Below, in pieces: positions 67-445 of a DNA stretch of 5,952 bases. Position 1 is the stretch's first letter. Each line of letters starts with the position of its first letter. This stretch comes from a virus (lineage: Duplodnaviria; Heunggongvirae; Uroviricota; Caudoviricetes). Both the position numbers and the translations under genes were made by a program. Location: IMG/VR virus record IMGVR_UViG_2648501437_000007. One strand, given 5' to 3'. Under the pieces are notes generated by a model. It was not told the DNA's origin. It did no database searches and saw nothing but the letters and a program-made list of their open reading frames with translations.

Positions 67-265
67 AAACTGGGGATAACGCCTTAAATGGCGAAGAAAT
101 GGTCTAAATAGGCTGATTCAAGGCATTTACGGGAGAAAAAATCGGCTCAAACATGAAGAAATGAAATGACTGAGTCAGCCGAGAAGTATTTCCCCGCTTA
201 TTCGCACCTTCCCTATAACATCCCTTCCTATTGAGAATGGGGTAAGCCTTTTAGTTCCACAGGCT

Positions 266-391
266 ATGGGGGGATATGATGTTGTGCTTGATATCAAAAA
301 AGCAGGAAATGGCAGTAGTTTTACTCTTTATGAACGTGTACCAGCATTAACGCCAAAAATTTTTGCTGATAGTGTTAATGCATGTAAATAA
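266..391 (+). CDS. Candidate small ORF (41 aa, MGGYDVVLDIKKAGNGSSFTLYERVPALTPKIFADSVNACK) inside the AT-rich segment; hypothetical
   Basis: ATG at 266, TAA at 389-391, ending about 25 nt upstream of the terminator hairpin at 415-445. Only a weak Shine-Dalgarno (AGG at 262-264, 1 nt before the ATG). No recognisable family. Listed as a candidate only. Confidence 0.15.
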   Translation: MGGYDVVLDIKKAGNGSSFTLYERVPALTPKIFADSVNACK

Positions 392-414
392 TAGTTAATC
401 CTGTCGTAACTCAT

Positions 415-445
415 GAGCCGCCTTTTGGGCGGCTTTGTTGTTTAT
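415..445 (+). terminator. Rho-independent terminator, + orientation, 13 nt upstream of the J start codon
   Basis: GC-rich stem GCCGCC (417-422) / GGCGGC (428-433) with loop TTTTG, extendable by A416:T434, followed by the U-rich tract TTGTTGTTTAT (435-445). The reverse strand has no U-tract after the hairpin, so it is + oriented only. Confidence 0.65.

What the first reader, a model, noticed from the sequence alone, without database searches (positions are those of the whole stretch)
67..445. AT-rich, ORF-poor segment with its own terminator sits directly upstream of J: candidate moron / small RNA locus
Bases 67-445 are about 35-40% GC, against roughly 55-68% in J, and contain no ORF of 60 codons or more in any frame. 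The segment ends in a well-formed + strand intrinsic terminator (415-445) only 13 nt before the J start codon. A terminator in front of an essential late tail gene is not what operon logic predicts; it is what horizontally acquired morons look like (own promoter and terminator, lower GC than the surrounding phage genes). A terminator-capped non-coding segment is also the typical architecture of an Hfq-binding sRNA 3' end. Prophage intergenic regions in pathogenic E. coli are known to encode regulatory sRNAs, but I cannot tell from sequence whether this is one. My recollection is that lambda has only about 60 bp between I and J, which would make this an insertion.
Basis: partly seen in the sequence, partly recalled or inferred. 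Interest (0 to 1): 0.7.

Follow-up and report, generated by a model that had tools for sequence, protein, structure and literature searches.

The report
IS5-cut prophage lipoprotein gene remnant
The apparently gene-free, AT-rich stretch in front of tail gene J is the end of an IS5 insertion sequence joined to the dead back half of a small prophage lipoprotein accessory gene, followed by a hairpin that phage lambda also has at this junction; it is not a small-RNA locus.

Summary
The measured observation holds: 40.6% GC against 56% in J, no ORF of 60 codons or more, and a good intrinsic terminator 12 nt before J. But the segment is a composite of three unrelated pieces. Bases 1-212 are the right end of IS5; the ORF ending at 66 is the IS5 transposase, not phage gene I. 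Bases 213-391 are the last 58 codons of a 112-aa lipoprotein gene (phrog_914, function unknown). In intact prophages this gene fills the I-J gap as a low-GC accessory cassette. Here IS5 has removed its leader, start codon and signal peptide, so it is dead. Bases ~410-457 (hairpin plus J ribosome-binding site) are homologous to lambda's own 60-bp I-J spacer.

The moron idea is right for the intact ancestor. The same gene family sits in three different tail-operon slots (I|J, K|I, G/T|H), always co-oriented, low in GC, and followed by a terminator. It is under strong purifying selection.

The sRNA idea is not supported: no Rfam family reaches threshold, there is no plus-strand promoter, and the weak GcvB-like match is a by-product of coding for GGYDVVLD.

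The lipoprotein's function is untested. My best guess is superinfection exclusion. Overall this is an ordinary decayed locus from a little-studied moron family.

The parts
1..66 (+). Last 21 codons plus stop of the IS5 transposase (InsH/Ins5A). This is not phage gene I.
   Evidence: Translation is [21 protein letters not shown]. Bases 1-215 are 99.5% identical to 'IS5-like element IS5 family transposase' loci in 2,758 E. coli genomes.
67..212 (+). Non-coding right end of IS5, including the 16-bp terminal inverted repeat CTTATTCGCACCTTCC at 197-212.
   Evidence: A complete 1,195-bp IS5 copy (L201) has IRs GGAAGGTGCGAACAAG / CTTATTCGCACCTTCC flanked by a CTAA duplication. Homology to uninterrupted prophages starts at 212/213. 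GC is 43.2%.
213..216 (.). CTAT, the first four target bases after the IS5 end and the presumed right copy of the 4-bp target-site duplication.
   Evidence: The intact site reads ...GGAACAC CTAT AACATC... and the window reads ...CACCTTCC CTAT AACATC. The left junction lies outside the window, so the duplication itself is unverified.
213..391 (+). 3' remnant of the lipoprotein moron gene: codons 55-112 (215-388) plus stop TAA (389-391). The leader, start codon, signal peptide, lipobox and first 54 codons are missing.
   Evidence: 100% identical to L001:1502-1680 within annotated CDS WP_001332187.1. Frame translation is ...ITSLPIENGVSLLVPQAMGGYDVVLDIKKAGNGSSFTLYERVPALTPKIFADSVNACK**. The full protein hits phrog_914 at E 7e-33. 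GC is 37.4%.
392..409 (+). Short 3' untranslated stretch of the cassette (TAGTTAATCCTGTCGTAA). It has no counterpart in lambda's spacer.
   Evidence: Alignment of lambda and L001 junctions; unique junction sequences.
410..445 (+). Hairpin / intrinsic terminator: stem-loop 415-435 (GAGCCGCC-TTTTG-GGCGGCTT) with U-rich tail 436-445. It is homologous to the hairpin in lambda's 60-bp I-J spacer.
   Evidence: terminator scan, -19.1 kcal/mol, z -3.2. (lambda hairpin AAACCGCC-TGCG-GGCGGTTT, -21 kcal/mol, z -2.8); two alleles perfectly linked to empty versus filled junctions, 76/76 each, with one A-U to G-C compensatory stem change.
446..460 (+). J ribosome-binding region (GGAGTGTGAGGA) and J start codon ATG at 458-460. 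This stretch is shared with lambda.
   Evidence: TTTATGGAG[C/T]GTGAGGAATGGGTAAAGG conserved between lambda and this lineage.

Best explanation
Bases 67-445 are a junction of three unrelated pieces, not one element.

(1) 67-212 is the untranslated right end of an IS5 insertion sequence. Its transposase gene ends at base 66.

(2) 213-409 is what IS5 left of a 112-aa lipoprotein gene and its short 3' UTR. In intact lambdoid prophages of E. coli this gene fills the I-J gap as a ~430-bp cassette. The cassette consists of a 73-nt leader (22% GC) and a 339-nt ORF (37% GC), set between flanks of 57-59% GC.

(3) ~410-457 is a hairpin/terminator plus the J ribosome-binding site, homologous to lambda's own I-J spacer.

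IS5 inserted at CTAT inside codons 54-56. This separated the leader, start codon, signal peptide and lipobox from the last 58 codons, so the gene is inactive here (shown). J downstream also carries a 1-bp frameshift. If that frameshift is real, the prophage is decaying.

How the intact cassette most likely works is inferred, not shown. In a lysogen it would be transcribed on its own from the AT-rich leader and stopped at the hairpin, so J stays silent. During lytic growth, Q-modified late transcription would read through the hairpin; that is established lambda biology. The product would be exported, lipidated at Cys16 and sent to the outer membrane, since no family member has Asp at +2. It is predicted to fold into a small helix-grip alpha/beta domain, and the two invariant mature cysteines probably form a disulfide.

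My best guess for its role (probability about 0.4-0.45) is superinfection exclusion at the envelope, acting on a step common to siphophage tail tips rather than on one receptor. The basis is analogy with other tail-operon cargo: HK97 gp15, Cor and T5 Llp.
For: - IS5 identity and terminus.
- Transposase C-terminus.
- Break in homology at 212/213, with 100% identity of 212-460 to the region upstream of gpJ.
- Intact locus with annotated CDS between I and J.
- Remnant frame.
- Lipobox MNKTILFCTIIALTG|C. 52 of 55 superfamily members have a PROSITE-type lipobox, none has Asp at +2, and 48 of 52 have exactly two mature Cys.
- phrog_914 hit at E 7e-33 for the protein, and all 55 members hit it.
- Purifying selection, dN/dS 0.06-0.15.
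- 71 of 76 cassette copies have an intact ORF.
- Confident model, pLDDT 83.8.
- Accessory status. The cassette is in 337 of 5,426 E. coli genomes, while the 3' end of I occurs at 7,543 places. I-J spacers are either 60 nt or 476-478 nt.
- Mobility between slots: I|J 61 loci, K|I 9, G/T|H 9, always co-oriented.
- Lower GC than flanks, and a terminator 16-26 nt after the stop in 9 of 10 representatives.
- The G/T|H slot is the HK97 gp15 moron slot.
- Hairpin homologous to lambda's spacer.
- J frameshift.
Against: - The left IS5 junction and the 5' half of the gene are outside the window. The exact junction was not found in any collection searched. A simple insertion, as opposed to an IS5-mediated deletion or rearrangement, is therefore inferred.
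- No sigma-70-like promoter reaches 9 of 12 matches in any cassette leader; the best are 8 of 12. In the K|I slot the leader is only ~33 nt. Independent expression in lysogens is therefore unproven.
- The target CTAT departs at its last base from the CTAA seen at another IS5 copy.
- Function is untested. An essentially identical lipoprotein is paired with at least four different J receptor-binding C-termini, which argues against simple masking of the cognate receptor.
- Phage Fraca carries both this family and cor.
Confidence: 0.9

Rival explanations
1. The segment encodes a stand-alone, terminator-capped regulatory sRNA (Hfq-binding type) transcribed on the + strand and ending at about 445.
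For: A real intrinsic-terminator-like hairpin sits at 415-445. Prophages of pathogenic E. coli do encode abundant Hfq-bound sRNAs (PMC4104026). There is a weak GcvB-like covariance-model match at 218-443 (19.6 bits, E 0.055).
Against: No Rfam family reaches its gathering score in the window, and the GcvB hit is far below threshold (19.6 against 42 bits). No + strand promoter-like site lies in 1-700. The stretch is the 3' part of a protein gene under purifying selection. The GcvB-like bases encode the invariant GGYDVVLD motif and differ at synonymous sites in homologs. The 3' UTRs and terminators of family members in other slots are unrelated in sequence. The U-tail is interrupted (UUUGUUGUUUAU). 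The known prophage anti-sRNAs (AgvB, AsxR) are 51-60 nt and lie 3' of PR', not at I-J.
Confidence: 0.04
2. In the intact cassette, the mRNA 3' end (or the coding GU-rich stretch) doubles as a regulatory RNA. It could be a 3'-UTR-derived sRNA or a GcvB seed mimic. On the minus strand the same stretch reads CACAACAT, matching the GcvB target consensus, and could act as a sponge.
For: The + strand carries GAUAUGAUGUUGUGCUUG, aligned to the GcvB R1 region by Rfam. Its reverse complement contains CACAACA, the GcvB target consensus quoted in PMC4104026. 3'-UTR-derived sRNAs are an established class (general knowledge).
Against: The motif is not kept at the nucleotide level in homologs: ggt ggt tat gat gtg gtt ctt gat in Klebsiella and ggg ggt tat gac gta gtt ctt gac in Enterobacter. 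The only minus-strand promoter-like site, at 388-359, is no more than shuffles give, and no minus-strand terminator follows the motif. The match was noticed after the fact.
Confidence: 0.03
3. The intact lipoprotein is not an anti-phage factor. It is instead a lysogenic-conversion factor that benefits the host in its environment (serum resistance, adhesion, envelope stress), as lambda Bor and Lom do.
For: The same window carries lom just after J, so tail-region morons with host-directed roles are precedented (PMC3594210). The cassette occurs in extraintestinal and enteroaggregative pathogens such as S88, NU14 and O104:H4. The lipoprotein does not co-vary with the J receptor-binding domain. The best structural neighbour is a Francisella lipoprotein, Flpp3; my recollection, not tested here, is that it is a virulence-associated protein.
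Against: No homology to Bor/Iss or any named family. The family is tied to siphophage tail operons in three slots, including the slot of the exclusion gene HK97 gp15. It also occurs in sequenced phages such as Fraca and LAU1.
Confidence: 0.25
4. The 41-codon ORF at 266-391 (MGGYDVV...ACK), or read-through from IS5, gives a functional truncated product or a new IS5-driven transcript that matters for J expression.
For: The in-frame internal Met72 gives an open 41-aa ORF. The IS5 transposase is co-oriented, so read-through transcripts could enter the remnant and stop at the hairpin (sequence layout).
Against: The product would lack the signal peptide, the lipidated Cys, invariant Cys43 and the first half of the fold. 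No promoter-like site or obvious Shine-Dalgarno sequence precedes 266. J is frameshifted anyway.
Confidence: 0.03

Closest known systems
HK97 gene 15, the founding 'moron' (Juhala et al. 2000; Cumby et al. 2012; review PMC3594210)
   Same: A single small envelope-protein gene with lower GC, co-oriented within a siphophage tail operon and followed by a terminator just before the next tail gene. The Enterobacter members of this lipoprotein family sit in exactly the gp15 slot (tail chaperone G/T | tape measure H) and share the homologous terminator hairpin and H start with HK97.
   Different: gp15 is a 62-aa product with no sequence relationship to the lipoprotein cassette, whose cargo DNA does not align with it. 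The review describes gp15 as inserting into the inner membrane. The protein here is a 112-aa lipoprotein predicted to go to the outer membrane. gp15's exclusion activity is experimentally shown; nothing is shown for this family.
Cor (phi80/N15/HK022-type) and T5 Llp: phage outer-membrane lipoproteins that block the FhuA receptor
   Same: Small phage-encoded lipoproteins with mature-domain cysteines, encoded next to tail or receptor-binding genes. They are the working analogy for what this family might do.
   Different: No homology beyond the signal peptide and lipobox. Cor aligns with the family profile only over residues 1-33, and Llp (8a60_B) only over 1-19 at E about 1. Phage Fraca has both cor and a family member. 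The lipoprotein does not track the J receptor-binding domain.
Lambda Bor and Lom (lysogenic-conversion morons near the tail genes)
   Same: Envelope proteins encoded by accessory genes in the late region. Lom is present in this same window at 4006-4605.
   Different: No sequence similarity to the Ail/Lom family or any other Pfam family, and a different position (I|J rather than after J).
IS5 (IS5 family, 1,195 bp, 16-bp inverted repeats, 4-bp target duplication)
   Same: 99.5% identity over the 215 bp available, the same right inverted repeat, and the same transposase C-terminus.
   Different: Only the right 212 bp are in the window. The flanking tetranucleotide is CTAT rather than the CTAA seen at the reference copy.
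AgvB/AsxR prophage anti-sRNAs (Tree et al. 2014, PMC4104026)
   Same: Prophage-borne, terminator-capped. AgvB carries the GcvB target consensus CACAACA, which also appears on the minus strand here.
   Different: Those RNAs are 51-60 nt primary transcripts located 3' of PR' in convergent pairs. This locus is in the tail operon, inside a protein gene, with no conserved RNA-level sequence.
Flpp3 (DUF3568), DUF302 and BamC N-domain helix-grip / TBP-like folds
   Different: Sequence identity is 6-12% with no profile-level sequence match. This places the protein in a fold class only and gives no functional inference.

Membership tests
IS5 insertion sequence | Near-identity to the IS5 transposase gene and element end | tested here: met
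   Bases 1-215 are 99.5% identical to annotated IS5 in 2,758 genomes. The C-terminal peptide is [21 protein letters not shown].
IS5 insertion sequence | 16-bp terminal inverted repeat at the element boundary | tested here: met
   CTTATTCGCACCTTCC at 197-212 equals the right IR of a complete copy. Homology to the uninterrupted target begins at 212/213.
IS5 insertion sequence | 4-bp target-site duplication flanking both ends | not testable with these tools
   The left end lies outside the window, and the junction was not found in genome, viral or metagenome collections.
Moron (Juhala/Hendrix definition, as summarised in PMC3594210) | Extra DNA between two genes that are adjacent in related phages | tested here: met
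   The lambda I-J spacer is 60 bp. Spacers are either 60 or 476-478 nt. The same gene family occupies three different slots.
Moron (Juhala/Hendrix definition, as summarised in PMC3594210) | Base composition different from neighbouring genes | tested here: met
   CDS GC is 0.37-0.46 against flanks of 0.44-0.59 in 10 representatives; 37% against 57-59% in E. coli.
Moron (Juhala/Hendrix definition, as summarised in PMC3594210) | Own terminator | tested here: inconclusive
   A terminator follows the gene in 9 of 10 representatives. However, in the I|J slot it is homologous to the hairpin of lambda's empty spacer. In the G/T|H slot it is shared by different cargos. It may therefore belong to the slot rather than the cargo.
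Moron (Juhala/Hendrix definition, as summarised in PMC3594210) | Own promoter / expression from the repressed prophage | tested here: inconclusive
   Only 8-of-12 sigma-70 matches in the leaders, none at 9 of 12. The K|I leader is ~33 nt. Expression itself cannot be tested here. In this window the leader is gone.
Bacterial lipoprotein (Lgt/LspA substrate) | Signal peptide with lipobox [LVI][ASTVI][GAS]C | tested here: met
   MNKTILFCTIIALTG|C in the intact gene. 52 of 55 superfamily members match a PROSITE-type lipobox and the Cys is invariant. This is absent from the remnant in this window.
Bacterial lipoprotein (Lgt/LspA substrate) | Outer-membrane sorting (no Asp at +2) | tested here: met
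   0 of 52 have Asp at +2. This is a rule of thumb only; localisation is not testable here.
PHROG phrog_914 (unknown function) | Significant full-length match to the family HMM | tested here: met
   E 7.3e-33, residues 1-112 against profile positions 1-118 of 118. All 55 superfamily members match.
Cor superinfection-exclusion lipoprotein (phrog_1119) | Homology of the mature domain | tested here: not met
   hhalign aligns only the signal peptide and lipobox, residues 1-33. Two of 55 members match weakly at E about 5e-4.
T5 Llp lytic-conversion lipoprotein | Homology of the mature domain | tested here: not met
Hfq-dependent sRNA / any described RNA family | Match to a curated RNA family at its gathering score | tested here: not met
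   No match in the whole window. The best sub-threshold hit is GcvB at 19.6 bits against 42.
Hfq-dependent sRNA / any described RNA family | Own promoter giving a discrete primary transcript | tested here: not met
   No + strand promoter-like site in 1-700. Transcription itself is not testable here.
Hfq-dependent sRNA / any described RNA family | RNA-level conservation independent of coding | tested here: not met
   Synonymous sites vary within the GcvB-like stretch, dN/dS is 0.06-0.15, and 3' UTRs are unrelated between slots.
AgvB/AsxR anti-sRNA group | 51-60 nt RNA with conserved ~42-nt 3' region, located 3' of PR' | tested here: not met
   Location and size are as described in PMC4104026. 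This locus is in the tail operon inside a CDS.

The most novel reading that the evidence does not exclude
The phrog_914 lipoproteins could be an undescribed family of tail-operon-borne superinfection-exclusion factors. They would act from the outer membrane or periplasm on a step common to siphophage tail tips, such as tape-measure or tip-complex passage, rather than on one receptor. The conserved hairpins that precede H, I and J would then be fixed docking points where such cargo is swapped between phages. The copy in this window would be one casualty (an IS5 hit) of that traffic.
Probability: 0.3. Interest if true: 0.5.

Novelty: new member of a known kind. Interest (0 to 1): 0.22.

Why it matters
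For this window, the result mainly prevents a misannotation. The "non-coding moron/sRNA locus" is an IS5 end plus a dead gene fragment, and the "gene I" upstream is a transposase.

The more useful result concerns the intact gene behind the remnant. It belongs to a widespread, strongly conserved and wholly uncharacterised family of small lipoproteins. The family moves between three slots of siphophage tail operons in Escherichia, Klebsiella, Enterobacter and Kluyvera, with structural relatives in Pseudomonas phages. It has no Pfam family and I found no literature on it. It is present in about 6% of complete E. coli genomes, including O104:H4 outbreak strains and ExPEC lineages. It is under-annotated in at least one phage record (LAU1). 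If it is an exclusion factor, it would add to the short list of envelope-level phage defences carried by prophages and would be relevant to phage-therapy host-range predictions.

The homologous hairpins, which persist while the cargo upstream of them changes, are a small testable clue to how morons are exchanged.

Tried and rejected
- AgvB/anti-sRNA identity. I recalled AgvB as a possible match because of the GcvB-related motif. The paper places AgvB 3' of PR' at 51-60 nt, so I rejected it.
- GcvB homolog or mimic. Sub-threshold, and explained by codons for GGYDVVLD with variable synonymous sites.
- Cor and Llp homology. Only the signal peptide aligns.
- Pfam, NCBIfam and PDB sequence searches for the lipoprotein and 55 relatives. 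Nothing real.
- Fold searches. These gave a generic helix-grip fold only and no annotated viral match. The AFDB50 library was unavailable.
- Test of receptor masking. Covariation between the lipoprotein and the J C-terminus was not found: at least four receptor-binding types pair with one lipoprotein.
- Searches for the exact IS5/remnant junction, to recover the left side. Absent from complete E. coli genomes, species-representative genomes, IMG/VR and JGI metagenomes.
- INPHARED phages at the DNA level for 213-460. No match.
- Literature search for WP_001332187 and phrog_914. Nothing.
- Technical failures. The search for related loci with the 55-sequence alignment failed because it was too diverse. 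The P0006 context look-up found nothing.
- Model coordinates are not exposed, so the C43-C111 disulfide could not be measured.
- Whether the J frameshift is shared with other genomes. No identical allele was found, so real decay and sequencing error cannot be separated.
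Full report
**1. The observation.**
Bases 67-445 are 40.6% GC against 56.4% for J, with 100-nt windows ranging from 33 to 44%. No ORF of 60 codons exists in the segment on either strand; the longest are 41 and 40 aa. A + strand hairpin at 415-435 has 9 pairs, 6 of them G-C, and is followed by TGTTGTTTAT. 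It meets a simple intrinsic-terminator rule and folds at -19.1 kcal/mol, z = -3.2 against shuffles. J starts at 458.

**2. What the segment is made of.**
It is not one element.

- Bases 1-215 are 99.5% identical to IS5 in 2,758 complete E. coli genomes. The ORF ending at 66 reads [21 protein letters not shown], the end of the IS5 transposase, not phage gene I.
- A complete 1,195-bp IS5 copy shows the terminal repeats GGAAGGTGCGAACAAG / CTTATTCGCACCTTCC flanked by a 4-bp CTAA duplication. The right repeat occupies window 197-212, so IS5 ends at 212.
- From 212/213 onward the window is 100% identical to the region upstream of gpJ in many E. coli prophages. No complete genome spans the junction.

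In an uninterrupted prophage (L001, NZ_CP009050.1), I is followed by a 73-nt spacer of 22% GC. Next comes an annotated 112-codon CDS (WP_001332187.1, 37% GC), then 66 nt containing the hairpin, then J. IS5 has inserted at CTAT within codons 54-56 of that CDS. The window therefore keeps only codons 55-112 and the stop (215-391). The region looks ORF-poor because a real gene has been cut in half and joined to the untranslated end of an IS.

**3. The gene that was cut.**
The intact product begins MNKTILFCTIIALTG|CKS, a textbook lipoprotein signal peptide.

- It has no Pfam or NCBIfam family. It matches PHROG phrog_914 ("unknown function") at E 7e-33 over its full length.
- Close homologs (47-62% identity) are confined to Escherichia, Klebsiella, Enterobacter, Kluyvera and Jejubacter, and all are called hypothetical.
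- A profile search of 1.8 billion representatives finds 122 clusters, nearly all 105-125 aa. In 55 of them the lipobox Cys and two further Cys (C43, C111) are invariant.
- 52 of 55 have a PROSITE-type lipobox, none has Asp at +2, and 48 of 52 have exactly two mature cysteines. By the standard +2 rule this predicts an outer-membrane lipoprotein. The invariance suggests a disulfide, which I could not measure because model coordinates are not exposed.
- dN/dS between members is 0.06-0.15 (dS is saturated for the deeper pairs). 71 of 76 E. coli-type copies in viral contigs keep an intact 112-aa ORF. It is a real, selected protein gene.
- The best viral match is an uncharacterised Pseudomonas phage protein (TM 0.83, 24% identity).

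**4. Is it a moron?**
For the intact ancestor, largely yes.

- The cassette is accessory. It is in 337 of 5,426 complete E. coli genomes, whereas the 3' end of I occurs at 7,543 places in 3,940 genomes.
- Among viral contigs with this J start, I-J spacers are either 60 nt or 476-478 nt and nothing else. 35 of 110 in the unbiased subset carry the cassette.
- The family is mobile between slots. In E. coli it lies between I and J (61 loci). In Klebsiella, Kluyvera and phage Fraca it lies between K and I (9-10 loci). In Enterobacter it lies between the G/T chaperone and tape measure H (9 loci). It is always co-oriented with the tail genes.
- The G/T|H slot is exactly where HK97 gene 15, the first gene ever called a moron, sits.
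- In 10 representatives the CDS is 4-22 GC points below its flanks. In 9 of 10 a terminator follows 16-26 nt after the stop.
- Not established: an own promoter. The leaders give only 8-of-12 sigma-70 matches, and the K|I leader is only about 33 nt.

**5. The terminator is not what it seemed.**
Aligning lambda's empty I-J spacer with the filled junction shows that lambda already has a homologous hairpin just before the same J ribosome-binding site. Lambda reads AAACCGCC-TGCG-GGCGGTTT TGTCATTTATGGAGCGTGAGGAATG. The window reads GAGCCGCC-TTTTG-GGCGGCTT TGTTGTTTATGGAGTGTGAGGAATG. The lambda hairpin folds at -21 kcal/mol, z -2.8. Its U-tract is poorer and it fails the simple terminator rule.

Across 152 junctions the two alleles are perfectly linked to state. 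76 of 76 empty spacers carry the lambda type, and 76 of 76 filled junctions carry the other. The stems differ by one compensatory A-U to G-C change, while variation within a class falls in the loop and tail.

The same pattern holds in the G/T|H slot. HK97 (gp15 cargo, with an annotated "putative terminator"), the Enterobacter prophage (lipoprotein cargo) and phage LAU1 share a homologous hairpin ACCCGC...GCGGGTTTTTTT and H start, while the DNA upstream differs.

So "a terminator in front of an essential tail gene" is a standing feature of these junctions, with or without cargo. By established lambda biology, Q-modified late transcription reads through such sites. I cannot tell whether the empty-site hairpin is ancestral or the scar of a lost cassette.

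**6. The sRNA reading.**
Nothing supports it.

- No Rfam family reaches its gathering score anywhere in the window.
- The permissive scan gave one borderline hit, GcvB at 218-443 (19.6 bits against a threshold of 42, E 0.055). It is driven by the terminator and by GAUAUGAUGUUGUGCUUG.
- That stretch encodes the invariant GGYDVVLD. In Klebsiella and Enterobacter homologs the same peptide is written with different synonymous bases, so the constraint is on the protein.
- I checked the tempting link to the prophage anti-sRNA AgvB, since the reverse complement contains its CACAACA motif. AgvB and its relatives are 51-60 nt RNAs located 3' of PR' (PMC4104026), so they are not at this locus.
- There is no + strand promoter-like site in 1-700. 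The U-tail is interrupted by G residues.

**7. Function of the intact lipoprotein (inferred only).**
The candidates are superinfection exclusion (as for HK97 gp15, Cor and T5 Llp) or a host-directed conversion factor (as for Bor and Lom).

- Cor and Llp are not homologs; only the signal peptides align.
- A simple "mask the receptor of my own J" model is weakened. An essentially identical lipoprotein (99-100%) is paired with at least four J C-terminal types, at 98, 70, 57 and 21% identity to this window's J.
- Phage Fraca carries both cor and a family member.
- The strict association with tail operons, including the gp15 slot, makes me favour exclusion at a step common to siphophage tail tips, with probability about 0.4-0.45. 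I give a Bor-like role about 0.25, and the remainder to something else.

**8. State of this copy.**
The gene is dead here, having lost its leader, start codon, signal peptide and first 54 codons. J also has a 1-bp insertion (an extra C at 1222) relative to intact J, which splits it into 458-1351 and 1293-3938. No complete genome shares that allele, so I cannot exclude a sequencing error.

An independent IS3 insertion hits the same lipoprotein gene in strain GN05476, next to a frameshifted I.

The exact IS5 junction was not found in any collection. The left side of the insertion, and hence the target duplication, remain unverified.

**9. Verdict.**
The modest interest lies in the uncharacterised, mobile lipoprotein family it belongs to, and in the slot-resident hairpins where tail-operon cargo is exchanged.

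Noticed in passing
window 458-3938 (indel at 1222): J is split into two ORFs (458-1351 and 1293-3938) by a 1-bp insertion (extra C at 1222) relative to the intact J of L001. With that base removed it reads as an 1,159-aa J. No complete E. coli genome has this allele (best 97.9%), so real pseudogenisation and sequencing error cannot be separated.
   Followed up: partly
window 270-290 (+), reverse complement on the minus strand: GATATGATGTTGTGCTTG resembles the GcvB R1 seed, and its reverse complement contains CACAACAT, the GcvB target consensus carried by AgvB. It encodes the invariant GGYDVVLD, and synonymous sites differ in homologs, so I read it as a coding coincidence.
   Followed up: yes
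L081:946-1005 (lambda 15445-15504); window 410-457: Lambda's 60-bp I-J spacer holds a 10-bp G-C-rich hairpin homologous to the window's terminator. It is not annotated in NC_001416. Two hairpin alleles are perfectly linked to empty versus cassette-bearing junctions (76/76 each), with one compensatory stem change. Its role in the late operon is unknown to me.
   Followed up: partly
L083:1362-1386 (HK97), L006:6360-6385, L082:~945-970 (LAU1): The terminator after HK97's gp15 moron is homologous to the hairpins that follow unrelated cargo in the same G/T|H slot of an Enterobacter prophage and phage LAU1. The hairpin plus H start stay in place while the cargo upstream is swapped.
   Followed up: partly
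L082:556-921 (Enterobacter phage LAU1, MN688132.1): The slot holds a 121-aa lipoprotein ORF (MVKILILIIFLIAGC...KECK) that is a distant member of the same superfamily (hhalign probability 96%, E 2e-9). GenBank annotates only a 55-aa fragment (754-921).
   Followed up: yes
L009:2003-3742 (E. coli GN05476, NZ_CP147578.1): An independent IS3 insertion interrupts the same lipoprotein gene within a few bases of the IS5 site seen here. The neighbouring gene I is annotated as frameshifted.
   Followed up: partly
I|J loci with complete J (L012, L043, L046, L051, L056, L070 and others): The J N-terminal 700 aa are 97-98% identical across loci, while the C-terminal 250 aa fall into at least four types (98, 70, 57 and 21% identity to the window's J). 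This is mosaic exchange of the receptor-binding end downstream of an unchanged lipoprotein gene.
   Followed up: partly
L010:6725-7336 and 12579-12812 (Escherichia phage Fraca, LR597645.1): A sequenced Hendrixvirinae phage carries a 31%-identical family member in the K|I slot, preceded by another small hypothetical gene. It also has an annotated cor exclusion gene after J, so it carries two lipoprotein cargos in one tail region.
   Followed up: no
window 4006-4605 and 4757-5952: An Ail/Lom outer-membrane protein gene (Pfam E 4e-126) follows J. A side-tail-fibre-like ORF ([22 protein letters not shown]...) starts at 4757 and runs off the window end. The long minus-strand ORFs over J and stf look like GC-rich shadow ORFs.
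   Followed up: partly
L072:~3230-4000: In one K|I-slot viral contig the nearest K match ends about 767 nt upstream of the lipoprotein gene. This suggests a second inserted gene between K and the lipoprotein (stacked cargo). I did not examine it.
   Followed up: no
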